NCBI GenBank assembly: GCA_016188495.1
Contig: JACPHU010000028.1
Location: forward strand, 38,325-102,324
Length of the DNA stretch: 64,000 nucleotides
Origin: Candidatus Uhrbacteria bacterium
GTDB taxonomy: Bacteria > Patescibacteriota > Patescibacteriia > UBA9934 > GWF2-40-263
Direction of reading: 5' to 3'
Shown here: positions 50,442 to 63,696 of the stretch, piece by piece
Numbering within the stretch: position 1 is the stretch's first letter
Layout: every line of letters starts with the position of its first letter
Made by a program: the position numbers and the translations under genes
The notes under the pieces: generated by a model
Told to the model about the DNA's origin: nothing
The model's input: the letters and a program-made list of their open reading frames with translations, nothing else
The model's database searches: none

Positions 50442-51377
50442 ATGTCTCTTCTTCGTATTAAAGGTGGCAAACTGGAGCAGATCAAAGAAACGGAATTGAA
50501 ACTCGAAAAGGATTTGCAAAAGCTCACCGAGACAAACCTCGAAACAGTTTTTGGATTGCAGTTTGTTTCAACGGAATTTGCCTTGAATAATCTACGCATT
50601 GATACGTTGGCATACGACACGGAAACCGGTTCCTTCGTGATTATTGAGTACAAGCGAGATCGAAGCTTTAGTGTGATCGACCAAGGTTTCGCCTATCTAT
50701 CCTTGATGTTGAATAATAAAGCAGACTTCATTTTGGAATACAGCGAAAGGATCGGCAAACATCTGCGACGCGACGATATCGACTGGTCACAAAGTCGTGT
50801 GTTGTTTGTTGCTCAAAGTTTTACCAATCACCAATTGCAAGCGATCAACTTTAAGGATTTACCGATTGAACTTTGGGAAGCCAAGAAATACAGCGACGAT
50901 CTTATTTCGTTTAACCAAATCAAGGCGCTGCAATCTGCCGAATCCATCAAGACCGTTTCCAAGAACGAAAATGTTTCAACAGTAAGTAAAGAGGTGCAAA
51001 CGTACTCTCCAGAAGAAATCCTTGCGCGATTTAAGGGTGATGCACACGAACTTTCTTTGGAAATACGACGAAGAATTCTTGACGTCAGCGGACGTTTTGA
51101 AGAAAAGCCAACGAAGAGATACTTGGGTTACAAAATCGAAGGGAAAAATATCGTTGCTATCGACTCTTCGGAAGGGAACGTAAGAATTACTTTTACTCGC
51201 ACTCGACCGGAAGACCTTAATGACCCAGAGAAAAAGACGAGTCTACGAAAGAAGTCTCTAGAACATTACAATCAATATCTTACAGACATCATCATCAGAA
51301 AACAGGATGATATTGACTATGCGATGTTCTTATTGAAGCAAGTCATGACACGTTTTCAGAAAGAGAAAATAATTTAA
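50442..51377 (+). CDS. Hypothetical protein with an N-terminal PD-(D/E)xK (RecB/Cas4-like) nuclease motif
   Basis: RIDTLAYDTETGSFVIIEYKRD...VIDQGFAYLS fits D...E.K plus a Q...Y motif. Confidence 0.4.
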   Translation: MSLLRIKGGKLEQIKETELKLEKDLQKLTETNLETVFGLQFVSTEFALNNLRIDTLAYDTETGSFVIIEYKRDRSFSVIDQGFAYLSLMLNNKADFILEYSERIGKHLRRDDIDWSQSRVLFVAQSFTNHQLQAINFKDLPIELWEAKKYSDDLISFNQIKALQSAESIKTVSKNENVSTVSKEVQTYSPEEILARFKGDAHELSLEIRRRILDVSGRFEEKPTKRYLGYKIEGKNIVAIDSSEGNVRITFTRTRPEDLNDPEKKTSLRKKSLEHYNQYLTDIIIRKQDDIDYAMFLLKQVMTRFQKEKII

Positions 51378-51413
51378 TCAAAAACTGACGTTCAAACGTC
51401 AGTTTTTGATTCA

Positions 51414-52115
51414 TCAGAGAAAGCGCGTTTCCAACTTTTCTTTTACTCGCTCCCAATCGGGACATTTTTCTGCTAAGAGTCTATAAAATGCATTGCTATG
51501 CTTTTTATATCTGAAGTGACAAAGTTCGTGAATGATCACGTAGTCAATACAGTCTTTTGATGCGTGAATGAGCTTCTCATTCAGAATAATGCGTTTGTTA
51601 TCTATAAAACTGCCCCAACGCTTTGCCATGTTCTTAATGCTGATTACAGGACGATTGGAGAGTTCAAACTTCCCAAGAACGGCATCAAGGCGACTGTTAA
51701 ATACGTCGAGTGTTTTATCCTTAAACCATTGATGAAGGATGCGTTTATTGGTATCTCCGTCGGTTACTCCAACGTTTGTTGTCAGCATCAACTTTCCTCG
51801 TTGCAATGAAACATCCCTTTCCTTGCCGCGTTGTACGATCAGTTGGTACTGCCTCCCAAGATAGAAGAAACTTTCTCCTGAGATGTACTCCCTCCGATAA
51901 ACTTTCTTCTTAAACTTACTGAAGTATCGAACCTGTTTTTCCAACCACACCCATTTTCTTCGAAGGAAAGATTCTATCTTTTCACATTCTGTATCAATAG
52001 GAGCCTTCACGATAAGTTTAATGTCCGAAGTAACTGTTAGGCTCAATGTCTTGCGGATTTCAAATTTCAGTACGTAGTCATAGAGATACTTTCCGTATTG
52101 AAATTGTTTTTTCAT
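51414..52115 (-). CDS. YgjP-like (DUF45/WLM-type) zinc metallohydrolase, as commonly found beside type I R-M loci
   Basis: HExxH motif in IIHELCHFRYKKHS; 233 aa; its start overlaps the hsdR stop. Confidence 0.55.
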   Translation of the reverse strand: MKKQFQYGKYLYDYVLKFEIRKTLSLTVTSDIKLIVKAPIDTECEKIESFLRRKWVWLEKQVRYFSKFKKKVYRREYISGESFFYLGRQYQLIVQRGKERDVSLQRGKLMLTTNVGVTDGDTNKRILHQWFKDKTLDVFNSRLDAVLGKFELSNRPVISIKNMAKRWGSFIDNKRIILNEKLIHASKDCIDYVIIHELCHFRYKKHSNAFYRLLAEKCPDWERVKEKLETRFL

Positions 52116-55100
52116 AGTGTGAAGAGGTCGTGATTATTCTCTGCAAGACTGATCACGGCATCCTCGATATTTCGCATCTGTTCTGCAGAAAGATCAATGC
52201 CGAGTTCAAGCTTCACGAAATCGTAAAGATAATCATCTATACGGTTCGCGATAACGCGCTTTACTTCAGTGTTTTTGTGCCAGTCCACAACCGCCTCAAC
52301 ACGAAGGACTTCAAGTAATCCCACAATCACCTGAGCATATTGCTCATCTGAGAGCCTTGCTGCCACGAACTGTTCCTTGAGGTTTCTGTAGAAAATGGAT
52401 GCCCCTTTTATTTGTTGGATTGAATCAGGAGATGCATCATCTGTTTTATTCATGACATCATCCTTAATCAGACGCATCTGCCCAAGAGCGTCAGCATCAG
52501 ACATCTTTCCGTCACGCATACTCTGAAGAATCTGTTGAATTTTTTCAGAAAAACGCTGATAAAATTCAGGGTCAGTGTCCATACGTTCGCGAATGGTGCG
52601 GTCGGTATGAGCGGCGATTGCTTCCGCTTTCGACTTATCTGATCCCAGTTCTTTGATTGCGGTCGCAAATCGTTCTGGATCAGTAATGTCGATTTGTGCA
52701 GTAAGTAACTCGACCCCTTTTGCGTCAATATACTTATCCAGCAACTGGATAAGCGGTTTCTTGTATTCATCCAAGTCGATCTGGTCGGCATATCGAAGAC
52801 GCACCGAACTACGAAGCTCGGTGAACTTCTTTAACTCCCGCTTATACACATCCGTGTGCTTGAAAGTCGTAGCGAAGTCCTTGAGCGACAAGCATTCATT
52901 GAACGCCCGGATAAACGCATTGTAGCTATCGTAGAACAATCTGCGCTCGGGTTCATCCTGAAGGCGCTGGATGTACGCCTCGTCGTCTGCTGGCAAACCG
53001 TTAAACATGTCGTGCAGATTCGAGTAGTTTTGTTCAAGTTCCTGAACCTTGTCACTCACATCGACAAGTGCACCCTTAACATCCTCTTCCGCGTAATTAC
53101 CGAACAACTTCATTGCCCGATCAAGGTTCTTGGCGTTTTCCGAGTAGTCGATAATAAATCCGGATGTCTTCGGGATTGTCTTATTTTCGAAGAGACGATT
53201 AACGCGTGCAATCGCCTGAAGAAGGTTGTGATCTTTCAGGTCTTTCGCGAGGTAGAGCACGGTATTTCGAGGCGCATCAAATCCTGTAAGCAACTTGTCG
53301 ACTACGATAATAATTTCGATACCATCGGCATTGTTCTTGAAGTTATCAATAACCTCATCTTCGTAGGACTTGAGACTCGAATACTTATGGCTCACCTCAT
53401 CCAGATATTCGATGACTTCTTTTTTATGGGTATCATCCTCACTAACAATTCCAGACTCATCAGAAATAATAACCGCCGTACGTACTTTTCCGTTCTTCTC
53501 GAACAGACGCTGGAAAAGAACCGCCGAAAACTTTGACGGAGCAACTAATTGTGCCTTCAACCCTGTTCCCTGAAACCGCTCAACGTAATGTTGCTCAACG
53601 TCATACGCAATTTCTGTAATGCGCTGAGGATTGTCTTTAATAATTTGGCGATCAACGTATCGTTGTAGATGCTGTTTATTCGCATCGCTCAGATTCTCGG
53701 TGATACGATCCATGTGACGATCAATCTGTTCGGTATTCTGCTCGAGGTCAACATAGCGACCTTCGTAAATGAGTGGCAAGATAATTTTGTCCTTGATTGC
53801 GTCATCGATAGTGTATTTATCAATATAGCCTCCAAACTTGAGATAGCTCGCTCGTTCCTTCTTCATGAGTGGCGTTCCGGTGAATGCGATGTAACAAGCA
53901 TTCGGGAGAACGCGTGACATTTCTAAGTTCGCCATACCGCCTTGGGTTCGGTGGGCTTCATCGATCAAGATAAAGACGTTCTTGTCATCATCGATAAACC
54001 CTCCACGCTTTTTGGAAGCCGCCTCGAACTTATGCACGAGTGTTGTTACCACGTTCAACTCCTTGTCTTTGATGAGTCTCAAGAGGTGCTCGCCACTGGT
54101 CGCGCGAACAACATCTTTCTTGAGACCACAGTTTCGGAACGTATCACCAATTTGTTTATCGAGGTCGCGACGATCCGTAACGAGAATGATGCGGGGATTA
54201 TTGATATCTGGATTATCAATCAACGCCCTAACGAACATCACCATGGTAAGCGACTTACCCGACCCCTGCGTGTGCCATACAAGCCCTCCCTGACGCTTTG
54301 TACCTGTCTCAGCCTCGTCTTCCTTGGCAATGCGATCAAGGATCTTTTTAATGGCAAAATACTGCTGGTAACGTCCAAGTTTCTTAACGCCCGCATCGTA
54401 AAGAACGAAGTTGCGTGACAAGTCGAGCAAGCGAGCCTTATCAAATAACGCAATAATCGAACGATCTTGTTCAGTTGGTAGTCGTTCTGTTGATTGCTTG
54501 AGACCAGATGTCGCCCCATTAAGGTCAAGGCAGAGCTGACGATAAGTTTCTCTGTCGATCTTTTTAGCGACGAGTTCCTTAACACGTTTATCCTGCGTTT
54601 CGAGCGAAGTATCTTTCTCCTTCCACGTTGCGTAGAACTTAAAAGGAGTAGCGGTCGTTCCGTAGGACATATCCTTACCGTTGGTCCCGACAAGCAACTG
54701 CGGATAGGTGTAAAGCTTTGGACAATAATCGATCTGCTGGTTTCGCAAGTGCTGGTTGACAGCTTCTTTCACCTCAACACTCGATTTCTTATTTTCAACA
54801 ATGGTAAACGGGATGCCATTCACAAAGACCACAATGTCTGGACGAATTGAACCCTTGCCTTCAGCAGGGAATTCTACCGTTACATGAAAAGCATTATTTT
54901 CTGGATGAATAAAGTCCACGAATCGAATATTCTTCGAAACACTCTTTCCATCATGGAAGACTTTCACCGCCTTTGATCCCGTCATCGGCATGATGAGGTT
55001 AAAGACCTTTCTCGAGGTATCAATCAGTCCTTCATAAGGAACATTCTCCAGCTCCTCAAGAGCTTCAAGGATATCCTTATCTGCAAATTTATATTCCTGA

Positions 55101-55303
55101 CCCTTATGCTCGTAAGAGTTTATTTCTTTCAGTTTCCCGAATGCAATGTCTTTCAGGATAAACTTTGAAAGATCACCCCGTCGCTGACGTTCGACTTCTT
55201 CAGAAGAAAGATATGTGTAGCCGAGATTGATAAGTAACTCAACAAACGGCAATTGCGATTGCCGTGCTTCGTCAAAATTTACTTGGAGGATGTTGCTATT
55301 CAT
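52112..55303 (-). CDS. hsdR: Type I restriction enzyme R subunit
   Basis: N-terminal PD-(D/E)xK nuclease motif RPDIVVFVNGIPFTIVENK, SF2 helicase motifs TQGSGKSLTMVMF (I), FILIDEAHRTQ (II) and a motif VI region; 1063 aa. Confidence 0.85.
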   Translation of the reverse strand: MNSNILQVNFDEARQSQLPFVELLINLGYTYLSSEEVERQRRGDLSKFILKDIAFGKLKEINSYEHKGQEYKFADKDILEALEELENVPYEGLIDTSRKVFNLIMPMTGSKAVKVFHDGKSVSKNIRFVDFIHPENNAFHVTVEFPAEGKGSIRPDIVVFVNGIPFTIVENKKSSVEVKEAVNQHLRNQQIDYCPKLYTYPQLLVGTNGKDMSYGTTATPFKFYATWKEKDTSLETQDKRVKELVAKKIDRETYRQLCLDLNGATSGLKQSTERLPTEQDRSIIALFDKARLLDLSRNFVLYDAGVKKLGRYQQYFAIKKILDRIAKEDEAETGTKRQGGLVWHTQGSGKSLTMVMFVRALIDNPDINNPRIILVTDRRDLDKQIGDTFRNCGLKKDVVRATSGEHLLRLIKDKELNVVTTLVHKFEAASKKRGGFIDDDKNVFILIDEAHRTQGGMANLEMSRVLPNACYIAFTGTPLMKKERASYLKFGGYIDKYTIDDAIKDKIILPLIYEGRYVDLEQNTEQIDRHMDRITENLSDANKQHLQRYVDRQIIKDNPQRITEIAYDVEQHYVERFQGTGLKAQLVAPSKFSAVLFQRLFEKNGKVRTAVIISDESGIVSEDDTHKKEVIEYLDEVSHKYSSLKSYEDEVIDNFKNNADGIEIIIVVDKLLTGFDAPRNTVLYLAKDLKDHNLLQAIARVNRLFENKTIPKTSGFIIDYSENAKNLDRAMKLFGNYAEEDVKGALVDVSDKVQELEQNYSNLHDMFNGLPADDEAYIQRLQDEPERRLFYDSYNAFIRAFNECLSLKDFATTFKHTDVYKRELKKFTELRSSVRLRYADQIDLDEYKKPLIQLLDKYIDAKGVELLTAQIDITDPERFATAIKELGSDKSKAEAIAAHTDRTIRERMDTDPEFYQRFSEKIQQILQSMRDGKMSDADALGQMRLIKDDVMNKTDDASPDSIQQIKGASIFYRNLKEQFVAARLSDEQYAQVIVGLLEVLRVEAVVDWHKNTEVKRVIANRIDDYLYDFVKLELGIDLSAEQMRNIEDAVISLAENNHDLFTL

Positions 55304-55547
55304 ATTGTCTGTAGCGATCTTCGTAATTCTTCCTCACATTGCTTGAGATGTAGCCACCAAGACCCCTACCGAGCAATGCTAACTGTTTCAATTGCTGAAG
55401 GTGGTATGACCCAGGCTTAAAATTTCCATACTTGTAATAACGATATCCATCCTTATTCGCCTCCGAGAATTTCACGATAATCGCATCGCTTTGTATTTCG
55501 TAGGCTTCGACGTCGGAATTACCATTGAGATTTCTATATCGTTCCAT
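55296..55547 (-). CDS. KTSC-domain small protein
   Basis: 83 aa; SDVEAYEIQSDAIIVKFSEANKDGYRYYKYGNFKPGSYHLQQLK...GGYISSNVRKNY matches the KTSC domain pattern (from memory). Confidence 0.4.
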   Translation of the reverse strand: MERYRNLNGNSDVEAYEIQSDAIIVKFSEANKDGYRYYKYGNFKPGSYHLQQLKQLALLGRGLGGYISSNVRKNYEDRYRQYE

Positions 55548-55549
55548 AC

Positions 55550-56776
55550 TTATGGATTAACTTTGATGAATTCGGTGGTTCGTATCTTGCCAGTCACGAG
55601 GTTGTTAAGCAAAAACTTCTTTTGAAATTTCAGGGCTTTCAACTTCCTCTCCAAAATCTCCAATTCTTCTTCAGCAAGTGCGAGTATTTTTCCAATTGCC
55701 ACCTGTTCTTCGTAAGCAGGAACAGGACATTTAACCAGTTTAAAATCTTTATATTTACAGTTCAAAGTATCGCTTACGATGCCTTGTGAATTCTGATAAA
55801 AAGAGTGGATGAGGCGTGGGGTTTTAAAGAGATAGGCAAAAAACAAGGGATCAACGTCTTTTCTTGGAGACACTACTGTGTAAGCAGGACTAACAATACC
55901 GTCGTACTTAGATAGGGCACTCCGTCCTTGCCACATTCGCATGGTGTTGTAGCCGATGTCCCCCGGACAAATACGCTTATATTTTGATTTATCAGTGTTA
56001 GAAGAATCTTTCTTATATGAGTTTGCTTGATAGATGATGCCTTTACGTGCCGCGATTGATAAAAGCGGTAGATCGCCACGACCAATTTCTTTTCGCTCCT
56101 TAAATAAGTCAGCCAGGCGCGATAAATTCCATTGTTTTGAAAAATTACGAAGTCGAATCTTTCCGTGCAATAGCTGTTGGCAAAGTCCGTTCTGAATCAT
56201 CTTCTTAAGATCAATCTTTTTAGATAGCTTCTCTATGGCACTGTCCCATGCTTCTAACACGGTAACGATGCGCGCCTGTTCGTCGACTGGAGGAATCAGT
56301 ATATAAACATCACGTAAATCTTCCTGCCCTATGTTAGAACGTACGGCACCTTGTCCTCGTTTAATAATTTCACCGCGAACCTCACTCGAAGAAAAACAGT
56401 ATTTCTTAAAGCAATCGTCAAGATCTTTTGTTTTTGATCGTGCACGAATAACAAAACCACCAAATATAACCTCCTCATTATCTAGATAAATCGAGGATAA
56501 ACCAATTTCTTCGGGTGTTTCAGACGTTCTATTAAATAATACGTCCCCGTATTTGACCCTATTCTTAGCTAAAGTTTTCGCATCAACCGCAACCATTCCT
56601 GGAATTAATTCAGATGTCAGTGAACTATGTTTGATGACCTCCATGACATTGATAAATCGAGTTCCTGACCCATATTGTGTCTTATCTGCATTGACGCCGT
56701 TTTTAAAATCAAATAAATCTCCCATCTTCATGGTCTTCCAGTCACTAGGGATCTTTTTTGATGGGGTATTTTGCAT
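55550..56776 (-). CDS. hsdS: Type I restriction-modification specificity subunit (two target-recognition domains)
   Basis: 408 aa with two TRD-like halves separated and followed by conserved coiled-coil spacers (EQARIVTVLEAWDSAIEKLSKKIDLKK, EEQVAIGKILALAEEELEILERKLKALK). Confidence 0.8.
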   Translation of the reverse strand: MQNTPSKKIPSDWKTMKMGDLFDFKNGVNADKTQYGSGTRFINVMEVIKHSSLTSELIPGMVAVDAKTLAKNRVKYGDVLFNRTSETPEEIGLSSIYLDNEEVIFGGFVIRARSKTKDLDDCFKKYCFSSSEVRGEIIKRGQGAVRSNIGQEDLRDVYILIPPVDEQARIVTVLEAWDSAIEKLSKKIDLKKMIQNGLCQQLLHGKIRLRNFSKQWNLSRLADLFKERKEIGRGDLPLLSIAARKGIIYQANSYKKDSSNTDKSKYKRICPGDIGYNTMRMWQGRSALSKYDGIVSPAYTVVSPRKDVDPLFFAYLFKTPRLIHSFYQNSQGIVSDTLNCKYKDFKLVKCPVPAYEEQVAIGKILALAEEELEILERKLKALKFQKKFLLNNLVTGKIRTTEFIKVNP

Positions 56777-56790
56777 AAGGTTTGATTGGA

Positions 56791-57264
56791 TTAGACTAGA
56801 AAAACATCAATGAGAGCAAAAATCACACCGAGAATCACGAACGTAATCTGTAGATAGGTGGTTGCTTCAACGGACGTTTTTGAGAGATCAGAAAGTTCGT
56901 TCAAAATCTCTTTTGCATCGGAAATTGCCTCTGGGTCTTCGTGATTCACACTGAACCACTTCCACACATCAGTAGCCTTGGTTAACAAAAATCCATGCTT
57001 TCTAAAATATGTACGGTCGATCATCATTTGAACTCCACCAAAGACTACAGACATCCCAAAAAAGATTAGACCCCACTTTGAATATAAAAGATCATGCACC
57101 CCACCATCACTAACTATTCGAGTGGCGGCAAGACCTCCAATAGCAAAAGCAATCTTTATCAGTAAGTCTGAAAACTTAAACGCTTGAGCATTCGCCTCGT
57201 GAAGGGATTCTCTTGCGGCAGATTCGAGAGTTTCGGCATTTCTGATTATAAGCTCCTTGTCCAT
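56791..57264 (-). CDS. Hypothetical three-TM membrane protein embedded between hsdM and hsdS
   Basis: 157 aa with hydrophobic helices IAFAIGGLAATRIV, LIFFGMSVVFGGVQMMI and ITFVILGVIFALIDVFLV; no recognised motif. Confidence 0.4.
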   Translation of the reverse strand: MDKELIIRNAETLESAARESLHEANAQAFKFSDLLIKIAFAIGGLAATRIVSDGGVHDLLYSKWGLIFFGMSVVFGGVQMMIDRTYFRKHGFLLTKATDVWKWFSVNHEDPEAISDAKEILNELSDLSKTSVEATTYLQITFVILGVIFALIDVFLV

Positions 57265-57424
57265 ACTATTTTTTGTCCTCTATTTTAGGAGGAATAGGAG
57301 GTTTGGAATCCTGTTTGAAAGGAAACAACGAGACTGGAACGCCATCTGATTTTTGACTCGTCTTTGGATTACGCACCTCAATAAGTTTTTTTGTTTCCGC
57401 TTTCTTATCCATACTGTGTGGAGA

Positions 57425-58207
57425 CTATGTTTTTGACTTTATCGTTTGATTTATTTTATCGAGTTCTTTCTTAACTTGTGCGTCTTTCTCTGACTTTTGC
57501 TTGATTTCAATTTTTTGATCCAAGATCAGTTCAATAGAGAGTCTAATTGGAGAAAAATACTCAAGACACTCTTCCTCTGTCAGCTCATGGACTCCTTTGC
57601 TTAGAATTCCGTAGACAGATTTCATTTGTACTAATTGACTCGGGAGCACAGTTTTCAGAGCGTCCACCTTTTCTTCCATTCGCTTTCTAAGAAAAATAAC
57701 GTCATCAAGACCGAGTGCTGATTTGTTAGCTTTATAAGTTTCAATGATAAGATTTTCAAATATTCTCCGAAGGTAGACAAAAGACCCAGCCCCTACACCA
57801 TGTGCCCTCAAACCAATCGCTTTTTTGTAATTTCTCAAGTCTTCTTCTGAAAGAAGCTTGTCGTATCGCTTACCGATCTCAGCAAATTGGATATCGGCTA
57901 GTGATGGAAACTGCCCCACCTTCATTATCCTTCCACCCTCAAGATCAACGATGAAGAATCTTAATATTGTTGGACCATCACGTTTGCAGGAAAGAGCGAC
58001 ACGTCTAAAAGATTCCCACCCATGGTAATCGTTAACCGTACTTGCACTAATTTCGTAAGTTGTATCGAACCCATCCAAAGAGTTATAGGCGTTGACTGTG
58101 CCTGAATAGATATTGCCTTGTATCTCAGCTTTCGTTACTGGTTCATAAAGCGCGATCTCAAAATAGAATTCGTGCTTGGATATTTTCTTTTCTTCTTCTT
58201 CATCCAT
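57425..58207 (-). CDS. Hypothetical cytoplasmic protein embedded between hsdM and hsdS (possibly DUF4145-like)
   Basis: 260 aa, helical C-terminal half, GLRAHGVGAGSFVYLRRIFENLI. Proteins of unknown function are often embedded in type I R-M operons; the family assignment is a guess. Confidence 0.35.
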   Translation of the reverse strand: MDEEEEKKISKHEFYFEIALYEPVTKAEIQGNIYSGTVNAYNSLDGFDTTYEISASTVNDYHGWESFRRVALSCKRDGPTILRFFIVDLEGGRIMKVGQFPSLADIQFAEIGKRYDKLLSEEDLRNYKKAIGLRAHGVGAGSFVYLRRIFENLIIETYKANKSALGLDDVIFLRKRMEEKVDALKTVLPSQLVQMKSVYGILSKGVHELTEEECLEYFSPIRLSIELILDQKIEIKQKSEKDAQVKKELDKINQTIKSKT

Positions 58208-58212
58208 ACGTA

Positions 58213-59724
58213 TTATTTGATGCCGAGCTGTTTTAAGTACTCGCTCATCTCTTTTTCGAGTTTCTGCAATTCTGGCTCAAGAGCAGCGAGTTCCTTAAGG
58301 TTTGCAGAAATATCAATCTCACCCTCCTCTTCGAAGGTGTCCACGTAGCGGGTGATGTTCAGGTTGTAATCGTTTTCCTTAATTTCATCTAAAGAAATGA
58401 GCCGAGAAAACTTTTCAACCTCTTTGCGATCAGCGTAAGTGTTTACAATTTTGTCCGTGTTTTCATCTGTAAGAATATTCTGCTTCTTGCCAGACTTGAA
58501 TTCCTTGGACGCTTCAATGAAGAGAACGTCTTTGCGGTTTTCGTTTGCTCCGCCTTTTTCGCGGGAACGGTCGAGAATAAGAATGGCGACAGGAATTCCC
58601 GTTGTTTGGAACAGGCTCGCTGGGAGACCGATCACGGCATCAATCATGTTTTCCTCAATGAGTGCTTGGCGAATGCGACCTTCGGCACCGCTTCGGAAAA
58701 GCACACCGTGCGGAACGATAACTGCGACACGTCCAGTCTTTGGTTTCGCAGTCTCAACCATATGCGTAATAAACGCATAGTCGCCTTTTTCGCCTGGTGG
58801 GATACCACGGTGGAAACGCTTGTACTTATCGCCCTCGGCATTCTCCGCACCCCATTTTTTCAAGCTAAAGGGTGGGTTTGCTACAACCACGTCAAACTTC
58901 ATCAAGTGGTCATTCTCAACCAAGAGTGGATTGTTCAAGGTATCACCCCATTCAAGACGTGCGGTGTCCTTGCCGTGCAAGAACATGTTCATCTGGGCGA
59001 GGTGGTACGTTGAACCCGTGCTTTCCTGTCCATACAACGCATAGTTCTTCGATCCCTGCTTTTCAACCTCAGCACCAGCCAAGAGCAGGAGACCACCTGA
59101 ACCCATCGCAGGGTCGCAAATGCGATCGCCCTCCTTTGGTTGTGCGAGACGAGCAAGAAGTCGAGCTACAGGAGTCGGAGTGAAAAATTCACCCGCTTTT
59201 TTACCTGCGTCCGCTCCGAACTTCTCAATCATGTACATGTATGAGTTACCAATGATGTCCTCATTGGTTTCAGACAAGTCAATTTTGTGAAAATCCTGAA
59301 TAAGATGACGGAGCATCTTATTACGTTGTTCTAGCTTGCCGAGCGTTGATTCCGAGTTGAAGTCCACACTGAAGACTCCTTCGAGCTTCGAGCGGTTTTC
59401 CTCTTCGATGCGATGGAATACTTTGTTTAGCTCTTCGCCGATATTGTCCTGTTCATGGATGCTATAGATGTAGTCGAAGGTTGTCTTCGGGGGGAGATAG
59501 AAACGATCAAGCTTCATCTTTTCCTGAATCCGAGCCTCGTCGCTCCCAAAACGTTCCTTGTTTTTCTCATACTGTTTCTTGGAACGGTCGCTCAAGTATT
59601 TAAAGAAGAGCATTGTCAGAACATAGTCCTTGTAAACACCCGCATCAACGGACGTTCGTGACGAGTCCGCGGCCGACCAAAGAACTTTATTGAGGTCGTC
59701 TTGTGAAAATGGTTTGTTGGTCAT
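58213..59724 (-). CDS. hsdM: Type I restriction-modification DNA methyltransferase (N6-adenine) M subunit
   Basis: HsdM N-terminal domain, AdoMet motif DPAMGSGGLLL, catalytic motif VVANPPFS; 503 aa. Confidence 0.85.
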   Translation of the reverse strand: MTNKPFSQDDLNKVLWSAADSSRTSVDAGVYKDYVLTMLFFKYLSDRSKKQYEKNKERFGSDEARIQEKMKLDRFYLPPKTTFDYIYSIHEQDNIGEELNKVFHRIEEENRSKLEGVFSVDFNSESTLGKLEQRNKMLRHLIQDFHKIDLSETNEDIIGNSYMYMIEKFGADAGKKAGEFFTPTPVARLLARLAQPKEGDRICDPAMGSGGLLLLAGAEVEKQGSKNYALYGQESTGSTYHLAQMNMFLHGKDTARLEWGDTLNNPLLVENDHLMKFDVVVANPPFSLKKWGAENAEGDKYKRFHRGIPPGEKGDYAFITHMVETAKPKTGRVAVIVPHGVLFRSGAEGRIRQALIEENMIDAVIGLPASLFQTTGIPVAILILDRSREKGGANENRKDVLFIEASKEFKSGKKQNILTDENTDKIVNTYADRKEVEKFSRLISLDEIKENDYNLNITRYVDTFEEEGEIDISANLKELAALEPELQKLEKEMSEYLKQLGIK

Positions 59725-59729
59725 ACGAG

Positions 59730-60386
59730 TTATTCGGATTTTTTGATAACGATTGAAGAGATGAGTTCGTTGAGCAGGGAGTCGCGTTGCTGGAGTAACT
59801 TTTGTTGAGAAATAACATTGCGGACGAGTTCGACGATGGTGCGTTGCGTTTCGATTGGAGGAACAGGTATCTCTAGTAATGAAAGGTTTTTGGTGAGGAT
59901 GGTTCGGATCGTTGATCCTGACGCGATGCGTTGGAGCTGTTGCTGTCCTTTTGGGGTATTGAGATAGGCACAGACAAATTCGGGAAGAACGTCATCGCGG
60001 TTCACTCGAATGATATGGAGTGACGATGATGCTATGAGGGGAAATCGTTTCTCGTTCACAAACGCAGCTTTGAACCCTCCGCTTGATGTGCCACGCGAGA
60101 CAAGTAGAACATCACCCTTTGACACCATGACCGAATCCGCACGACCGATCACCTTGATTCGTTTGAGACCGTTCTCATCGGCAATCGACCCGTTACCCAG
60201 AAGGTTTGCCGCTTGTACAACCCTTGTGTCTCCATTCGGATCTTGCGGGATCGATCCCCGAAAGCTGAATCCTGTTGAAATAGTTGAAATTTCTTCTAGT
60301 GTTTTATTCACAAGTAAGTCGTTACTGTTTGATAAAGCGACGATACTCCCCCTTGTATTAAGAGTCAAGTTTTTACTTGTACACAT
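59730..60386 (-). CDS. Half-size type I R-M specificity subunit (single TRD)
   Basis: 218 aa, one TRD plus a C-terminal conserved helix (ETQRTIVELVRNVISQQKLLQQRDSLLNELI); directly upstream of hsdM in the same orientation. Confidence 0.6.
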   Translation of the reverse strand: MCTSKNLTLNTRGSIVALSNSNDLLVNKTLEEISTISTGFSFRGSIPQDPNGDTRVVQAANLLGNGSIADENGLKRIKVIGRADSVMVSKGDVLLVSRGTSSGGFKAAFVNEKRFPLIASSSLHIIRVNRDDVLPEFVCAYLNTPKGQQQLQRIASGSTIRTILTKNLSLLEIPVPPIETQRTIVELVRNVISQQKLLQQRDSLLNELISSIVIKKSE

Positions 60387-60686
60387 CCTCCTACTGCATA
60401 TTTATATTTACCAAGTGGTCACACAGACCTCAGTTTTTCCAATAAAGTGGCAGAAGAAGTAGTCAAAACTGACTTTACTTTGGGGTGTTTGTAAGCTATT
60501 CTAGCCCTGACGAAACCCAACCTCCTTACAGGGGATTTTTTCCTTACCGGATCGCACGCATTGAACGGCATCCGGTTAAAACAATTCTCGTACGATCCGT
60601 ACGGGGGTTGGGTTTCGTCACCACCGGGTGTCGTTTTTGTTTTAGCGGCATATGTGTGGACATTACTCTTCACCCCAAACAATCGT

Positions 60687-61739
60687 ATGGCCATCATCAT
60701 TTCATCCAACGGCGGGAAAGCCGTGAAGATAGAAAAATCCTCCTTTGAGAAAGAGGATTATCTACAGCAATACATCTACGAGAATCCGGAGAGCATTCCT
60801 TTGTATGAAATCAAGGAAGACATCCGTCTGCTCATTCTCGCACGCGAGTTTCCTACCAACAGTGGTCCCATCGATGCGATCGGCATTGATAAGTATGGGG
60901 AGCTCTACATTGTTGAAACGAAGCTCTATGCAAATGCAGACAAGAGAAGGGTCATTGCCCAATCGCTTGATTACGGCGCGGCACTCTGGAAACACTCCAA
61001 CGATTTCAATGAATTTTTGAAGATCTTAGATCAGCACACACAGAAGGTATTCAAGCTCCGGACAACGGAAAAAATCAGTGAGTTTTTCGAGCTTGAAACG
61101 GAAGACGTTGATGCAATCTTTGAGAAAGTTCGTGACAATCTCAATAACGGCGTCTTTCATTTCGTCGTCCTCATGGACAAACTCGACGACAGGCTCAAGG
61201 ATCTTATTTTGTACGTGAATCAAAATAGCCAGTTTGATGTCTACGCGGTTGAATTTGAATACTACAAACACGATACGTACGAGATCATCATTCCAAAACT
61301 ATTCGGCACGGAAGTAAAGAAGGATATTGCCGTATCCACATCAGGCATCACACGCAGAAAATGGACGGAGGAACTGATGCTTCAGGATGCAAAACAAAGG
61401 CTCTCTCCAGATGAATTCAAAGGCTTTGAGCAGATCTATGCCTTTTCAAAACAACACGCCAGCGAAATTCGTTTCGGAACAGGTGCCTATGGAACGTTCA
61501 TCCCTATTTTTGGAACGATCTGCGAACGGTCGTTGTTCACTCTTTCAACGGACAAGAGACTTATATTCAATTTCGAATGGATGGAGAAACGGCTCGCCGA
61601 GCTATTCAAAGAAAAATTGGAAACGATCGGCTTCTCATTTTTAGAGAATTATAAAGAATCCAAACCAAGCGTTCTCCCAGAGGAATGGTTGCCAAAGACC
61701 TCTCCGTTTCTTCATGTTATCGAGGAACTTTTGTCTTAA
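60687..61739 (+). CDS. PD-(D/E)xK nuclease-superfamily protein (RecB/Cas4-like fold), hypothetical
   Basis: GPIDAIGIDKYGELYIVETKLYANADKRRVIAQSLDYGAALW contains D, E.K and Q...Y motifs in the right order and spacing. Start at the ATG at 60687; the track start at 60561 precedes a hydrophobic, probably non-coding extension. Confidence 0.45.
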   Translation: MAIIISSNGGKAVKIEKSSFEKEDYLQQYIYENPESIPLYEIKEDIRLLILAREFPTNSGPIDAIGIDKYGELYIVETKLYANADKRRVIAQSLDYGAALWKHSNDFNEFLKILDQHTQKVFKLRTTEKISEFFELETEDVDAIFEKVRDNLNNGVFHFVVLMDKLDDRLKDLILYVNQNSQFDVYAVEFEYYKHDTYEIIIPKLFGTEVKKDIAVSTSGITRRKWTEELMLQDAKQRLSPDEFKGFEQIYAFSKQHASEIRFGTGAYGTFIPIFGTICERSLFTLSTDKRLIFNFEWMEKRLAELFKEKLETIGFSFLENYKESKPSVLPEEWLPKTSPFLHVIEELLS

Positions 61740-61802: not shown

Positions 61803-62408
61803 ATGGACACCGAAAAGTTATACGTTCGAAAACAAGCCATTAAACTTTCGGGAGGAGAGCGTTTTTCAATTCATAAGGTAAAAGCGCCTACTGTTTTAGA
61901 TTTTTGGCAGTATGGATTCTCGAATCTTAACTCCAACGTCTTGCGCGGAGCACTGGCTGAATTTCTTGTTGAGTGTGCTCTTAAAGAACTGGATGCAATC
62001 GAGATTCGCAATCCGTGGGGGGATTACGATGTTGAGTACAACGGCAAAAAAATTGAAGTGAAGTCCTGTTCGTATCTTCAAGACTGGGATCAACCAAAAC
62101 TTTCCGTCATCAGGTGGGCGGGGCTTAAAGCGAAGTCGCTTTATTGGTCCTCTGCCGTTGGTGATTTTCAGAAGAATGAACAGAAGGAGTACAAGTCAGA
62201 CATTTACGTACTCGCACTTTTAAACCACATGGAGACAGAAACTCTAGATATTCTAGATTTGAATCAATGGTGTTTCTACGTTCTCTCAAAGGAGACACTC
62301 AAGGTCATTTCCCGTGATAAAAGCGCGGTCTCGCTGTCGACGCTACAAAAACACAATGTTGAACCCGTTGGGTTTGATGCATTGAAAACAAAGATCGAAT
62401 CGCTCTAG
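61803..62408 (+). CDS. Hypothetical protein with a PD-(D/E)xK-like motif
   Basis: LAEFLVECALKELD...GDYDVEYNGKKIEVKS fits an E...D...E.K core; 201 aa. Confidence 0.35.
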   Translation: MDTEKLYVRKQAIKLSGGERFSIHKVKAPTVLDFWQYGFSNLNSNVLRGALAEFLVECALKELDAIEIRNPWGDYDVEYNGKKIEVKSCSYLQDWDQPKLSVIRWAGLKAKSLYWSSAVGDFQKNEQKEYKSDIYVLALLNHMETETLDILDLNQWCFYVLSKETLKVISRDKSAVSLSTLQKHNVEPVGFDALKTKIESL

Positions 62409-62923
62409 TCTTTTTCTTCCTCAGACAGATCATGTTCTGATTCATAATCTTCGTTTCGTTCATCCTCCTCTTCTATTACATGATCGATGCCCGCCGCATT
62501 GGCCATTTGTTTCATCATCTCCTCTGTCAATACAGACTCTGACTCGGACAAACCTTTATTGTTTTCACGATAGCGCTTGTGATTATTAGACAGGTAGTAT
62601 TTTTGTGCCTGCACGCTTCCATCGCGAGCTTTTCCAAGAAGAGCGAGCTCAACATTGTCTGCCGTTTTTTCAATCCCACGCCCAATCGCTTCGTCGGCTT
62701 CTATCGTAAAAACCTCATCGTCTGCTCTCCAGCGGCTATAGGTTGAACGGTTGATTCCGATCCGCGAAAGGGCTGCACCAATGTTGGGTGCTTCCTCGAG
62801 GTACTCAAGAAGTTTGGTTTTTTGAGCGCTCTGTCTTTTCTCTATGGTTTCTGCTTTTTTCTTCGCACCACGCTGTCCTTTTGAGAGTTTCTTTTTGATT
62901 GCCATAGAGCACGAACCTTTCAA
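62405..62923 (-). CDS. HTH DNA-binding protein (phage terminase small-subunit-like or regulator)
   Basis: Lys-rich N-terminus, a helix-turn-helix-like LLEYLEEAPNIGAALSRIGINRSTYSRWR, and an acidic C-terminal tail; 172 aa. Confidence 0.35.
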   Translation of the reverse strand: MKGSCSMAIKKKLSKGQRGAKKKAETIEKRQSAQKTKLLEYLEEAPNIGAALSRIGINRSTYSRWRADDEVFTIEADEAIGRGIEKTADNVELALLGKARDGSVQAQKYYLSNNHKRYRENNKGLSESESVLTEEMMKQMANAAGIDHVIEEEDERNEDYESEHDLSEEEKD

Positions 62924-63696
62924 GTCTTATACACCGCAAGGGAGCCGGTCTTTTTCTCCCATCGGTCGATTATGCTCTGACAATACTCAGGATCAATTTC
63001 AATCCCCACACAAACACGCCTTACAACATCACACGCAAACAAGCATGTTCCAGACCCAAGAAAGCCATCGTAGACGATATCTCCAGAGGACGAACTGTTA
63101 AGGATGAGTCGTTGAATGAGATTGATCGGCTTGGTGGTTGGATGGTTGGAACTCTTCCTCGGCTTTGGACAAATGAGAAGCGACTTGTCCGTTGGTTTGT
63201 AGAATGTATGTGTTCCATACCATCCGTAGGCAACCAGTTCGTGTTGTGGAGCATAATCAAGTCTTGCCATCGTTGCTGAAGTTTTGACCCAAATGAGCAG
63301 TTGAGAAAATTTGAACATCTCAGCCAGAATTGCCTGGTGCAAAGACCAGATCATTTTGTCTGAGTTGAAGATGTAGTACGTATTCTTGTCAGTGAGATGT
63401 GGCTTTACGGCACTCAACCATTCTTGCATGAAGGATTGGTACTCCTCATCACTTTGGAGATGGTCTGCTTCTATCACCTTATTTTTAGACAGTGTTTTGA
63501 ATCCACGTGCTCCTTCAACCAGAGCAACGCCGTATGGGGGATCTGTGCAGATAAGAGATACTTTTTTGTCCTGAAGAACCTGCGCAACAAACTGCTTGTC
63601 GCGTGAATCTCCACAACCAAGCGCGTGAGCACCAAGCATCACAATGTCTCCTTTTTTAATCAATCTTTTTTGCTTTTTTGTTTGTGAGTTGTTCAT
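62920..63696 (-). CDS. DNA methyltransferase, beta-class N6-adenine/N4-cytosine (DPPY before the AdoMet motif)
   Basis: Catalytic motif IV LICTDPPYG, then the C-terminal AdoMet motif YDGFLGSGTCLFAC. Start uncertain among Met codons at 63750, 63696 and 63639. Confidence 0.7.
   Translation of the reverse strand: MNNSQTKKQKRLIKKGDIVMLGAHALGCGDSRDKQFVAQVLQDKKVSLICTDPPYGVALVEGARGFKTLSKNKVIEADHLQSDEEYQSFMQEWLSAVKPHLTDKNTYYIFNSDKMIWSLHQAILAEMFKFSQLLIWVKTSATMARLDYAPQHELVAYGWYGTHTFYKPTDKSLLICPKPRKSSNHPTTKPINLIQRLILNSSSSGDIVYDGFLGSGTCLFACDVVRRVCVGIEIDPEYCQSIIDRWEKKTGSLAVYKT

What the first reader, a model, noticed from the sequence alone, without database searches (positions are those of the whole stretch)
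56791..58207. Two unknown genes (260-aa cytoplasmic protein plus 157-aa three-TM protein) embedded between hsdM and hsdS of a type I R-M operon
The operon order on the minus strand is half-hsdS, hsdM, X (57425-58207), Y (56791-57264), hsdS, KTSC, hsdR, ygjP-like. Type I hsd loci are known hotspots for embedded anti-phage cargo, for example prrC/rloC anticodon nucleases and Abi genes. A soluble sensor-like protein paired with a small membrane protein resembles abortive-infection modules. I do not recognise either protein, so this may be an undescribed embedded defence pair.
Basis: inference. Interest (0 to 1): 0.6.

Follow-up and report, generated by a model that had tools for sequence, protein, structure and literature searches.

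The report
Swappable cargo genes inside a restriction operon
Three small genes, not two, sit between hsdM and hsdS of a type I restriction operon in a Candidatus Uhrbacteria genome; they are two independent swappable cargo cassettes in a defence-gene hotspot, one of them from a large unnamed family laid out like the phage-sensing RNase RAZR.

Summary

X and Y are not a pair. X has about 3,400 homologs and Y has 14. Y is preceded by Z in the 7 other contexts where it was looked for, and X is next to Y only in this window.

A contig with 93-94% identical DNA on both flanks carries one DUF6119 gene where X-Z-Y sit here. Another relative (hsdM 96% aa) keeps Z-Y but has a TIR-like pair instead of X.

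In every surveyed relative with hsdM at 73% identity or more and a detectable hsdS, the hsdM-hsdS slot is occupied. The cargo is highly diverse and rich in defence genes: Bro-N, RhuM/Fic, SMODS/patatin, TIR, Abi_2 and PADLOC candidates.

X matches nothing in Pfam, NCBIfam, PADLOC or PDB sequences. It has a variable N-terminal beta domain, which is a CxxC zinc ribbon in 32 of 74 relatives but degenerate here. A near-invariant linker follows, then a helical domain whose only consistent fold matches are HEPN proteins, with an invariant His but no Rx4-6H arginine.

That layout resembles RAZR/PD-T7-4, but the membership tests fail. Defence function is inferred, not shown.

Interest is moderate.

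The parts
59730..60386 (-). Half-size HsdS (218 aa), first gene of the operon. A half-S gene upstream of hsdM is conserved across this R-M lineage.
   Evidence: Pfam Methylase_S 3.9e-12. tblastn hits upstream of hsdM in most of the 80 related loci.
58213..59724 (-). HsdM (503 aa), the left border of the cargo slot.
   Evidence: Pfam N6_Mtase 2e-101 and HsdM_N 4e-24. Homology to L100, L101 and L094 ends at the hsdM stop codon, at 58205-58214.
57425..58207 (-). X (260 aa): degenerate zinc-ribbon beta domain (about residues 30-95), invariant linker K96-x-G-Q-x-P-S, HEPN-like helical domain (about 103-235) with invariant H207, and a charged C-terminal helix. It is an independent single-gene cassette.
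   Evidence: The cassette is replaced in L094 and L100.
57266..57412 (-). Z (48 aa): hydrophilic, basic, proline-rich peptide. It is missed in the finding and is the constant upstream partner of Y.
   Evidence: Read from the sequence. Conserved 44-48-aa ORF upstream of Y in L004, L085/86, L088-90, L091-93, L094, L095 and L096/97. pN 0.12-0.13 against pS 0.77-0.79.
56791..57264 (-). Y (157 aa): three-TM membrane protein with an N-terminal cytoplasmic helix and a soluble helix between TM2 and TM3. It forms the two-gene Z-Y cassette.
   Evidence: Hydropathy peaks at 34-52, 64-82 and 132-157. 14 clusters in total. Alignment A6. dN/dS 0.06-0.07.
55550..56776 (-). Full-length HsdS (408 aa), the right border of the cargo slot.
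   Evidence: Pfam Methylase_S with two stretches, and PADLOC Specificity_I 1.5e-76. Homology to L100 resumes at 56759.
55296..55547 (-). 83-aa ORF (KTSC-like by eye only) in a second, smaller variable slot between hsdS and hsdR.
   Evidence: No Pfam hit at E<=0.1. phrog_17428 at 2e-15. Present in L100 (99%) and L094 (81%). Absent in L101 and L095. A KilA-N gene occupies this position in L004.
52112..55303 (-). HsdR (1063 aa).
   Evidence: Pfam SWI2_SNF2 4e-77, HSDR_N 2e-32 and T1R_D3-like.
51414..52115 (-). YgjP-like metallopeptidase (233 aa), last gene of the operon.
   Evidence: Pfam YgjP-like 2e-51. It follows hsdR in related loci.
51376..51411 (-). Intrinsic-terminator-like hairpin (16-pair stem plus T-run) closing the operon.
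56760..58204 (-). The cargo slot as defined by comparison with L100: a 1,445-bp segment holding X-Z-Y. In a contig 93-94% identical on both flanks it is replaced by 1,521 bp holding one DUF6119 gene.
   Evidence: blastn breakpoints. DUF6119 at 7.7e-22.

Best explanation
The hsdM-hsdS junction of this Patescibacteria (CPR) type I R-M operon is a hypervariable cargo slot. In this genome it holds two unrelated accessory cassettes, co-transcribed with the hsd genes.

Cassette 1 is X. It belongs to a large, unnamed, phylum-spanning family with three parts:
- a fast-evolving N-terminal beta domain, which is a C-x2-C...C...H zinc ribbon in many relatives but has lost its ligands in the CPR/Bacteroidota clade, including here;
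- a near-invariant linker (KxGQxPS);
- a conserved HEPN-like helical domain with invariant R147, H207 and C214 and near-invariant R148, E151, Y199 and S203.

The most likely function (inferred) is a stand-alone, single-protein phage-sensing abortive-infection effector built like RAZR/PD-T7-4. In that model the variable N-domain recognises a phage protein and the HEPN-like domain, probably as a dimer or oligomer, attacks RNA or blocks translation.

Cassette 2 is Z-Y, a 48-aa soluble proline-rich peptide plus a 3-TM protein. It is a rare mobile two-gene module. It is inferred to be a membrane-acting toxin/neutraliser or exclusion module that works independently of X.

Shown here: gene reality, independence of the cassettes, cassette swapping, the defence-rich content of the slot, and the domain layout of X. 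Inferred: anti-phage function, RNase chemistry, and any role for Z-Y.
For: Slot and cassette behaviour:
- L100 is 93-94% DNA-identical across window 61500-58205 and 56759-51308, yet carries a DUF6119 gene instead of X-Z-Y.
- L094 (HsdM and HsdR 96% aa) has a 154-aa gene plus a ThsB-TIR-like gene instead of X and keeps Z-Y.
- L101 (HsdM 97%) has a metallo-beta-lactamase-fold gene.
- All surveyed relatives with HsdM at 73% identity or more and a detectable hsdS have an occupied slot of 0.8-4.1 kb. The 79 slot proteins (3 of them the window's own) fall into 46 clusters.
- Among the 68 cargo proteins scanned, the content is defence-rich: Bro-N 11, RhuM 6, SMODS 5, AGS_C 4, Fic 4, patatin 2, YhcG 2, AAA_21 2, ThsB_TIR 2 and Abi_2 1, plus PADLOC PDC-S05, S13 and S23.

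X:
- The family is large: 3,397 hits and 2,485 clusters at 50% identity.
- The models are confident: pLDDT 88 for the full length and 91 for the C-domain.
- In the C-domain search, every Foldseek match with TM>0.45 is a HEPN protein: 2q00 (TM 0.56/0.63), 1o3u (0.53/0.60) and 1ufb (0.46/0.49). 1jog and HepT 6m6u score lower (about 0.4). RnlA and 2q00 (prob 0.97) appear with the full-length model.
- 32 of 74 relatives have CxxC at aligned positions 42 and 45, and C74 is present in 73 of 74.
- The N-domain is the most variable part (24% mean pairwise identity), against 73% for the linker and 52% for the helical domain. RAZR shows the same pattern (PMC13017515).
- X sits directly after hsdM, with start/stop spacing or overlap of a few nucleotides, in two distinct type I lineages: HsdM 78-81% identical in L001-3, L026 and L030, and MerR-fused HsdM at about 40% in L005, L008, L011 and L013.
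- Other homologs lie next to type III/II methylases, SNF2/ResIII helicases, Mrr, Abi_alpha, HicB, and integrase or primase genes.
- One homolog is on a 9.7-kb plasmid next to a 'super-infection exclusion protein B' gene, and another is in a prophage-like part of a B. cereus megaplasmid. There is a PHROG hit and one phage hit.

Z-Y:
- Z precedes Y in the 7 other contexts where it was looked for.
- Four of the nine contexts are directly upstream of hsdS (window, L004, L094, L095). One is next to AAA_13, ResIII, Band_7 and RhuM/Fic genes, and one is next to a reverse transcriptase.
- Both genes are under purifying selection.
Against: - There is no experimental or direct computational evidence of anti-phage activity for X, Z or Y.
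- None of the 74 X homologs hits any PADLOC model, including the embedded-candidate (PDC) models. None hits DUF4145 or any HEPN Pfam model at E<=1.
- All Foldseek E-values are poor: above 0.06 for the full-length model and above 1 for the C-domain. The HEPN assignment therefore rests on the consistency of the matches and on TM scores of about 0.5-0.6.
- The canonical HEPN arginine is absent. Y199 (73 of 74) sits where RAZR has R146, eight residues before the His, so RNase chemistry is uncertain.
- The window's X has lost the zinc ligands, so its 'sensor' domain may work differently or not at all.
- About 80% of species-representative X loci are not next to recognisable R-M genes, and some CPR copies sit among housekeeping genes such as Cpn60, GatB, MetK and DnaN.
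- Two Y contexts (L088, L091) look non-defensive.
Confidence: 0.5

Rival explanations
1. One reading: X (soluble sensor) and Y (membrane effector) form one two-component abortive-infection system.
For: They are adjacent and co-oriented in one operon. L100 lacks all three genes together.
Against: The family sizes differ by more than 200-fold. X is absent from all 8 other Y contexts. Y and Z are absent from 80 X loci and from 80 hsdM-related loci. L094 replaces X alone and keeps Z-Y. L001-3, L026 and L030 have X alone between hsdM and hsdS.
Confidence: 0.05
2. X is a PrrC-like second-line guard that is functionally coupled to the Hsd complex. It is held inactive by HsdM/HsdS and released when a phage anti-restriction protein disables the R-M enzyme.
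For: In the CPR clade, 8 of about 27 species-representative X loci are inside type I operons, always between hsdM and hsdS. In 6 of them X lies directly after hsdM, often with overlapping stop and start codons, and this occurs in two different HsdM lineages. X has a HEPN-like domain, as PrrC does. The PrrC precedent is described in PMC3710099.
Against: Most family members, including all 53 more distant species representatives, are not in type I operons. Near-identical operons work without X. X has no ABC ATPase regulatory domain.
Confidence: 0.12
3. X is a non-catalytic nucleic-acid- or protein-binding regulator or adaptor, for example controlling expression or maintenance of the mobile element or operon it rides in. 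Its HEPN-like domain would be catalytically dead.
For: The HEPN Rx4-6H arginine is missing. The HEPN review notes non-catalytic HEPN domains such as MtlR (PMC3710099). The most common cargo at the same position in relatives is Bro-N, a DNA-binding antirepressor-type domain.
Against: A constellation of invariant or near-invariant polar residues (K96, Q99, R147, R148, E151, Y199, S203, H207, E211, C214) is kept across phyla. This is more typical of an enzyme or a precise interaction site. HEPN families with His but no Arg are still considered potentially active (PMC3710099).
Confidence: 0.15
4. X and/or Z-Y are selfish addiction or hitch-hiking genes (toxin-antitoxin-like or neutral passengers) that stabilise the island or merely ride in it, without protecting against phage.
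For: Z-Y looks like a small-protein plus membrane-protein pair. Some contexts are non-defensive. The island carries a large serine recombinase. X homologs occur on plasmids next to TA genes.
Against: Strong purifying selection acts on Y and Z, and X is conserved across phyla. The slot is otherwise filled with known defence modules. Many TA-like modules are themselves abortive-infection systems, so this rival overlaps with the main explanation.
Confidence: 0.15

Closest known systems
RAZR / PD-T7-4 (ring-activated zinc-finger RNase; Nature 2026, PMC13017515; PDB 9Y9C, 9Y6U)
   Same: Both are single proteins of about 220-280 aa. Both have an N-terminal zinc-ribbon-type domain that is the most variable part, then a conserved linker, then a C-terminal divergent HEPN-type helical domain with an essential or invariant His. 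In X, the conserved residue eight positions upstream of the His matches the spacing of RAZR R146...H154. Both occur sporadically across phyla on mobile or defence loci.
   Different: No sequence relationship is detectable. There is no DUF4145 Pfam hit and no PADLOC hit for 74 members, and no PDB sequence hit. RAZR entries are not among the listed Foldseek matches. X has Tyr instead of the catalytic Arg. The window's X has lost the zinc ligands. X carries an extra charged C-terminal helix.
PrrC / RloC and the 'restriction-linked ORFs' of type I hsd loci
   Same: These are also accessory genes inserted inside a type I hsd operon, and PrrC and RloC carry a HEPN-type effector domain. PrrC is the paradigm of a back-up defence embedded in hsdMSR (PMC3710099; Payne et al.).
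   Different: X has no ABC-ATPase domain and no Rx4-6H motif. It is not restricted to hsd loci, and close relatives of this operon function without it.
Guilt-by-embedding candidates (HEC/PDC families; Payne et al. 2024 bioRxiv 10.1101/2024.01.29.577857) and TgvAB in the V. cholerae VPI-2 type I operon (PMC11411939)
   Same: The genetic logic is the same: variable cassettes embedded in type I R-M, BREX or DISARM operons are frequently independent defence systems. Relatives' cargo at this very slot hits PDC-S05, S13 and S23.
   Different: Neither X nor Z-Y matches any HEC or PDC model in PADLOC-DB v2. Neither has been tested.
RnlA/LsoA (RNase LS) toxins and HEPN-T/PaREP1 (2q00) proteins
   Same: These are the best structural neighbours. 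PaREP1-type HEPN 'lacks R but H is conserved' (PMC3710099), as X does. RnlA combines N-terminal alpha/beta domains with a HEPN domain and acts on phage infection.
   Different: The TM scores are modest (0.28 for RnlA, 0.56-0.63 for 2q00) and the E-values are non-significant. There is no cognate antitoxin gene next to X.
HEC-08 and DS-38 (HEPN plus zinc-finger defence proteins)
   Same: They combine a HEPN domain with zinc-ribbon or zinc-finger domains in a single validated defence protein.
   Different: The domain order is reversed: N-terminal HEPN with a canonical R-x4-H motif, and C-terminal zinc fingers. hhalign of the X family against DS-38 gives probability 0.14.

Membership tests
RAZR / PD-T7-4 | C-terminal DUF4145 (PF13643) domain | tested here: not met
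   No DUF4145 hit at E<=1 for the window's X or for any of 74 diverse family members.
RAZR / PD-T7-4 | N-terminal Cys4-type zinc ribbon | tested here: not met
   The window's X has N42 and D45 where 32 of 74 relatives have C-x2-C, and only C74 is retained. The feature is present in the distant half of the family, with a C-x2-C...C...H pattern.
RAZR / PD-T7-4 | Catalytic Arg and His (R146, H154) | tested here: not met
   H207 is invariant, but the residue eight positions upstream is Tyr in 73 of 74 members. The RAZR residues are taken from PMC13017515.
RAZR / PD-T7-4 | Match to the family's sequence or structure models | tested here: not met
   There is no PADLOC hit of any kind for 74 members. 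That PADLOC-DB v2 contains a PD-T7-4 model is from my own knowledge. There is no PDB sequence hit at E<=10. 9Y9C and 9Y6U are absent from the listed Foldseek matches. A direct pairwise alignment could not be made because the RAZR sequence was not obtainable.
RAZR / PD-T7-4 | Activation by assembly around ring-shaped phage proteins; RNA cleavage | not testable with these tools
   This needs biochemistry or cryo-EM.
HEPN superfamily | Four-helix up-and-down HEPN fold | tested here: inconclusive
   The C-domain model has pLDDT 91. All Foldseek matches with TM>0.45 are HEPN proteins (2q00, 1o3u, 1ufb), and 1jog and HepT 6m6u score about 0.4. E-values are 1.3-6. With the full-length model, 2q00 has probability 0.97 and RnlA 0.51.
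HEPN superfamily | Rx4-6H motif at the start of the last core helix | tested here: not met
   Only the His is present (H207, just before helix 211-259). No Arg lies 5-8 residues upstream in 74 members. Families that keep the His but lack the Arg are recognised in PMC3710099.
PrrC/RloC anticodon nucleases | N-terminal ABC/Rad50-like ATPase fused to HEPN | tested here: not met
   X is 260 aa. It has no ATPase Pfam or PADLOC hit, and the model shows a beta domain plus a helical domain only.
PrrC/RloC anticodon nucleases | Embedded in a type I hsd operon (PrrC) | tested here: met
   X lies between hsdM and hsdS here and in L001-3, L005, L008, L011, L013, L026 and L030.
Embedded defence cargo (guilt-by-embedding) | Lies co-oriented inside a multi-gene defence operon, in a slot that varies between close relatives | tested here: met
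   Clean cassette replacements are seen in L100, L101 and L094. The 79 slot proteins form 46 clusters.
Embedded defence cargo (guilt-by-embedding) | The same slot in relatives holds known defence genes | tested here: met
   SMODS/AGS_C/patatin, ThsB_TIR, Abi_2, RhuM/Fic, AAA_21 and YhcG, plus PDC-S05, S13 and S23.
Embedded defence cargo (guilt-by-embedding) | Homologs elsewhere are enriched next to defence genes | tested here: inconclusive
   For X, roughly 14 of 80 species-representative loci are adjacent to R-M genes (8 type I, all in the CPR clade), and others are near Mrr, Abi_alpha, HicB, integrases or housekeeping genes. For Z-Y, 6 of 9 contexts are R-M or defence-like. No formal background statistic was computed.
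Embedded defence cargo (guilt-by-embedding) | Confers phage resistance | not testable with these tools
   This needs phage challenge assays.
Type I R-M system (host operon) | HsdM, HsdS and HsdR with their diagnostic domains in one operon | tested here: met
   Pfam and PADLOC hits.

The most novel reading that the evidence does not exclude
X would represent a new, very widespread family of single-protein antiviral sensor-effectors (about 2,500 clusters at 50% identity, from CPR to Bacillus, Pseudomonas, Bacteroidota and cyanobacteria). It would be convergent with, or anciently related to, RAZR. It would use a HEPN-like domain with an unconventional active site (Tyr/His plus a helix-1 Arg pair), and in CPR bacteria it would have dispensed with zinc.

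Z-Y would be a previously unseen two-gene membrane-acting immunity module of CPR bacteria. Together they would show that the hsdM-hsdS junction of CPR type I systems is a dedicated, rapidly exchanged 'defence cassette dock'.
Probability: 0.35. Interest if true: 0.65.

Novelty: new variant of a known kind. Interest (0 to 1): 0.45.

Why it matters
Embedded cassettes in R-M operons are a productive source of new immune systems, and Patescibacteria (CPR) immunity beyond R-M is poorly charted.

This locus offers three things:
- A clean natural experiment. Near-identical operons carry at least four different cargos, which pins the cassette boundaries to within about 20 nt.
- A large protein family that is absent from Pfam, NCBIfam and PADLOC and is mislabelled 'short-chain dehydrogenase' in RefSeq. 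Its layout mirrors the recently solved RAZR sensor-RNase but with a different putative active site. Homologs exist in culturable Bacillus, Pseudomonas and Chryseobacterium.
- A tiny peptide plus membrane-protein module with no known relatives.

If X is shown to defend, it would add a major family to defence catalogues. It would also extend the 'variable zinc-ribbon sensor plus HEPN effector' design principle. If X does not defend, the slot survey still documents a cargo dock in a type I lineage.

Tried and rejected
- Pfam, NCBIfam, PADLOC and PHROGs scans of X, Y and Z gave nothing, except an unannotated PHROG (phrog_25239, 3e-13) for X.
- Pfam and PADLOC scans of 30 and 74 X homologs gave only scattered sub-threshold noise: DUF1488, YtxK_like and DUF5677 at E>0.01.
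- PDB sequence searches with two X profiles gave zero hits at E<=10.
- Foldseek against viral BFVD models gave only coiled-coil and tape-measure noise.
- A profile search for distant Y relatives added one sequence only.
- DS-38, a validated HEPN plus zinc-finger defence protein, was considered as a possible identity for X. It was rejected because the domain order is reversed and hhalign probability is 0.14.
- A blastn search for an E. coli homolog using the Pseudomonas X gene gave no match.
- The RAZR sequence could not be obtained from the papers or supplements held, only its accession RRL46918.1. No direct alignment was therefore possible.
- No meaningful direct or inverted repeats flank the cassettes, and no internal promoter or terminator signals rise above the shuffled expectation. 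The mechanism of cassette exchange remains unknown. Homologous recombination through the conserved hsdM and hsdS flanks is the simplest guess.
- The three longer X relatives I read (P0145, P0223, P0247) carry N-terminal extensions that were uninformative.
Full report
**1. Observation**

- half-size hsdS, 59730-60386
- hsdM, 58213-59724
- X, 57425-58207 (260 aa)
- Y, 56791-57264 (157 aa)
- hsdS, 55550-56776
- an 83-aa ORF, 55296-55547
- hsdR, 52112-55303
- a YgjP-like gene, 51414-52115

Pfam and PADLOC confirm the Hsd and YgjP assignments. The 83-aa ORF gets no KTSC hit.

Reading the sequence shows a third gene that the finding missed. Z (57266-57412) encodes a 48-aa hydrophilic, basic, proline-rich peptide. 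It starts 12 nt after the X stop and ends 1 nt before the Y start.

All junctions from hsdM to hsdS are 1-14 nt. No terminator-like hairpin lies inside the operon on this strand, and a strong one follows YgjP at 51376-51411. The nine genes therefore look like one transcription unit.

X has no hydrophobic segment. Y has three, at 34-52, 64-82 and 132-157. The exact proteins are on record as hypothetical proteins HYV70_05300 and HYV70_05295 of a Candidatus Uhrbacteria MAG.

**2. X and Y are not partners; Y's partner is Z**

X has 3,397 homologs in the word-index search. A profile search finds 2,485 clusters at 50% identity. Y has 13 homologs, and only 14 after a profile search.

I looked up eight other independent genomic contexts of Y.
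- In none of them is X present.

Conversely, none of the 80 species-representative X loci has a Y or Z hit. Nor does any of the 80 loci with relatives of this hsdM.

**3. The hsdM-hsdS junction is a cargo dock**

Three close relatives carry different cargo at this junction.
- L100 is 93% identical in DNA to window 61500-58205 and 94% identical to 56759-51308. Between these points it carries 1,521 bp encoding a single 506-aa DUF6119 protein, where the window has the 1,445 bp of X-Z-Y.
- L094 (HsdM and HsdR 96% aa identity) loses homology at the hsdM stop and regains it inside Z. In place of X it has a 154-aa gene and a ThsB-TIR-like gene, and it keeps Z-Y at 77% and 89% aa identity.
- L101 (HsdM 97%) has a metallo-beta-lactamase-fold gene.

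Among the surveyed loci, every relative with HsdM at 73% identity or more and a detectable hsdS has an occupied slot of 0.8-4.1 kb. Many relatives at 51-57% identity have hsdS abutting hsdM.

The 79 slot proteins (three of them the window's own) fall into 46 clusters. The largest cluster holds Bro-N proteins (15), and X forms a cluster of 4.

Pfam and PADLOC scans of 68 cargo proteins give the following:
- Bro-N 11, RhuM 6, SMODS 5, AGS_C 4, Fic 4
- patatin 2, YhcG/DUF1016 2, AAA_21 2, ThsB_TIR 2
- Abi_2, NYN, DUF6161 and AAA_15 (1 each)
- many hits to the embedded-candidate families PDC-S05, PDC-S13 and PDC-S23

This is the 'guilt-by-embedding' situation described by Payne et al., and exemplified by TgvAB and PrrC.

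A second, smaller variable slot lies between hsdS and hsdR. It holds the 83-aa ORF here and in L100 and L094, nothing in L101 and L095, KilA-N in L004, and a 342-aa gene in L030.

**4. What X is**

X matches nothing in Pfam, NCBIfam, PADLOC or PDB sequences. This holds for the window protein, for 30 close homologs and for 74 diverse homologs. The only hit is an unannotated PHROG.

AlphaFold2 with a 30-sequence alignment gives a confident two-domain model (pLDDT 88). It has a five-stranded beta domain (about residues 36-100) and a helical domain (103-259). The helical domain alone models at pLDDT 91.

Foldseek E-values are poor, but the matches are consistent.
- With the C-domain, all hits with TM above 0.45 are HEPN proteins: 2q00 PaREP1 (TM 0.56/0.63), 1o3u (0.53/0.60) and 1ufb (0.46/0.49). 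1jog and HepT 6m6u score about 0.4.
- With the full model, 2q00 has probability 0.97 and the HEPN toxin RnlA 0.51.

An alignment of 74 homologs from GTDB species shows three things.
- The N-domain carries C-x2-C at aligned positions 42 and 45 in 32 of 74 members, mainly Bacillota, Pseudomonadota, Cyanobacteriota and Chloroflexota. C74 is present in 73 of 74, and a His lies a few residues later in the CxxC-bearing sequences inspected by eye. This is a zinc-ribbon-like site.
- The CPR and Bacteroidota clade, including the window (N42, D45), has lost this site.
- Several positions are invariant across the 74: K96, G98 and Q99 (linker KxGQxPS), G139, G141, Y145, L146, R147, I149, F150, P189, G205, H207, C214 and L229. 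Near-invariant positions include R148, E151, Y199, S203 and E211.

H207 sits just before the last long helix, where HEPN domains place their catalytic His. No Arg lies 5-8 residues upstream. Y199 occupies the position eight residues before the His.

Mean pairwise identity is 24% in the N-domain, 73% in the linker and 52% in the helical domain.

**5. Comparison with RAZR**

The recently characterised RAZR/PD-T7-4 (PMC13017515) has this same layout:
- an N-terminal zinc ribbon that is the most variable region and determines phage specificity;
- a conserved linker that packs on the HEPN domain;
- a C-terminal divergent HEPN (DUF4145) with catalytic R146 and H154, which are also eight residues apart.

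RAZR polymerises around ring-shaped phage proteins and then cleaves RNA.

X works like this on paper, but it fails the membership tests.
- There is no DUF4145 hit, no PADLOC hit and no PDB sequence hit.
- The RAZR entries are not among the listed Foldseek matches.
- X has Tyr instead of the Arg.
- The window copy has no zinc ligands.

I could not obtain the RAZR sequence for a direct alignment.

Other HEPN plus zinc-finger defence proteins have the opposite domain order: HEC-08 and DS-38. DS-38 shows no profile similarity to X.

**6. Where X lives**

In the CPR clade, 8 of about 27 species-representative loci have X inside a type I operon, always downstream of hsdM.
- In six of them X is immediately downstream, often overlapping hsdS by about 10 nt.
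- This occurs in two HsdM lineages: one 78-81% identical to the window's, and a MerR-fused HsdM at about 40% identity.

The 53 more distant representatives are never in type I operons. Several follow type III/II methylases or SNF2/ResIII helicases. Others neighbour Mrr, Abi_alpha, HicB, NA-iREase, integrase, resolvase or primase genes. Some sit among housekeeping genes.

Plasmid records annotate homologs as 'short-chain dehydrogenase'. Neither the sequence nor the model supports that name.
- One homolog is on a 9.7-kb Pelagovum plasmid, between the rep gene and a 'super-infection exclusion protein B' gene.
- Another is in a prophage-like stretch of a B. cereus megaplasmid.
- One Rhizobium phage carries a distant homolog.

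**7. What Z-Y is**

Z-Y is a rare module, found as far as seen only on metagenomic contigs and MAGs. Its nine contexts are as follows:
- four times immediately upstream of hsdS (window, L004, L094, L095);
- once after AAA_13 and ResIII genes and before Band_7 and RhuM/Fic genes (L085);
- once near a reverse transcriptase (L096);
- twice in uninformative or housekeeping-like surroundings (L088, L091);
- once on a 2.1-kb contig with unannotated neighbours (L087).

No homology or fold evidence bears on its function. A membrane-acting toxin/neutraliser or exclusion module is the best guess, and it is inference only.

**8. Verdict**

These genes are embedded cargo in a true defence hotspot, but they are two independent cassettes (X, and Z-Y), not a sensor-effector pair.

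X is best described as a member of a large, unnamed family with a RAZR-like layout and an unconventional HEPN-like domain. Z-Y is a new, tiny family.

Anti-phage function is plausible for both: I put it at about 0.45-0.5 for X and lower for Z-Y. It is untested. RNase chemistry for X is less certain, at about 0.3.

Novelty: a new variant of a known kind. Interest is moderate, at 0.45.

Noticed in passing
window 50442-51377 (+): This 311-aa protein matches the PADLOC embedded-candidate family PDC-S18 almost end to end (4e-104). It also has weak NucS_C and DUF5655 Pfam hits. It sits just downstream of the R-M operon's terminator.
   Followed up: partly
window 60561-61739 (+): A 392-aa NucS-like protein, divergently placed upstream of the operon. 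It hits PDC-S11 (5.6e-17) and PDC-S18 models. The R-M operon is therefore flanked on both sides by candidate-defence genes.
   Followed up: partly
window 48961-50397 (-): A large serine recombinase (Resolvase, Recombinase and Zn_ribbon_recom domains) lies next to the defence cluster. The whole region may be an integrated island.
   Followed up: partly
window 47253-48977 (+): A 574-aa protein with a weak, sub-threshold NCBIfam hit to the antiphage GapS1 family (1.2e-09, 37.5 bits against a cutoff of 320). It has no Pfam hit.
   Followed up: no
window 62405-63979 (-): Two overlapping N6_N4_Mtase ORFs (276 aa at 62920-63750 and 107 aa at 63656-63979) lie upstream of an HTH_Tnp_1_2 protein (62405-62923). 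The 107-aa ORF looks like the C-terminal part of a second methylase, so this may be a frameshifted or duplicated gene.
   Followed up: no
window 55296-55547 (-); L004, L030, L094, L095, L100, L101: There is a second variable slot between hsdS and hsdR. It holds an 83-aa ORF (phrog_17428 hit, no Pfam KTSC hit) here and in L100 and L094, nothing in L101 and L095, a KilA-N gene in L004, and a 342-aa gene in L030.
   Followed up: partly
window 59730-60386 (-) and most of L100-L179: A half-size HsdS gene directly upstream of hsdM is conserved across this type I lineage, in addition to the full-length hsdS. Some relatives insert genes between the half-S and hsdM: Trypsin_2 in L001-3 and DUF3892 in L004.
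   Followed up: no
L098 (NZ_CP065917.1) and L099 (NZ_CP045607.2): RefSeq names X homologs 'short-chain dehydrogenase'. Nothing in the sequence, the Pfam scans or the structure model supports this name, and it looks like a propagated misannotation.
   Followed up: yes
L094 755-1897 and L107 7081-8372: A two-gene cassette (a 154-200-aa unknown protein plus a 224-228-aa ThsB-TIR-like protein) recurs in the same hsdM-hsdS slot in two relatives. It may be another uncharacterised embedded pair.
   Followed up: no
L034 (Candidatus Absconditabacterales), L028, L031: The X gene could not be called as one ORF with the standard code in these loci. For the Absconditabacterales locus this probably reflects the alternative genetic code 25 (UGA = Gly).
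   Followed up: no
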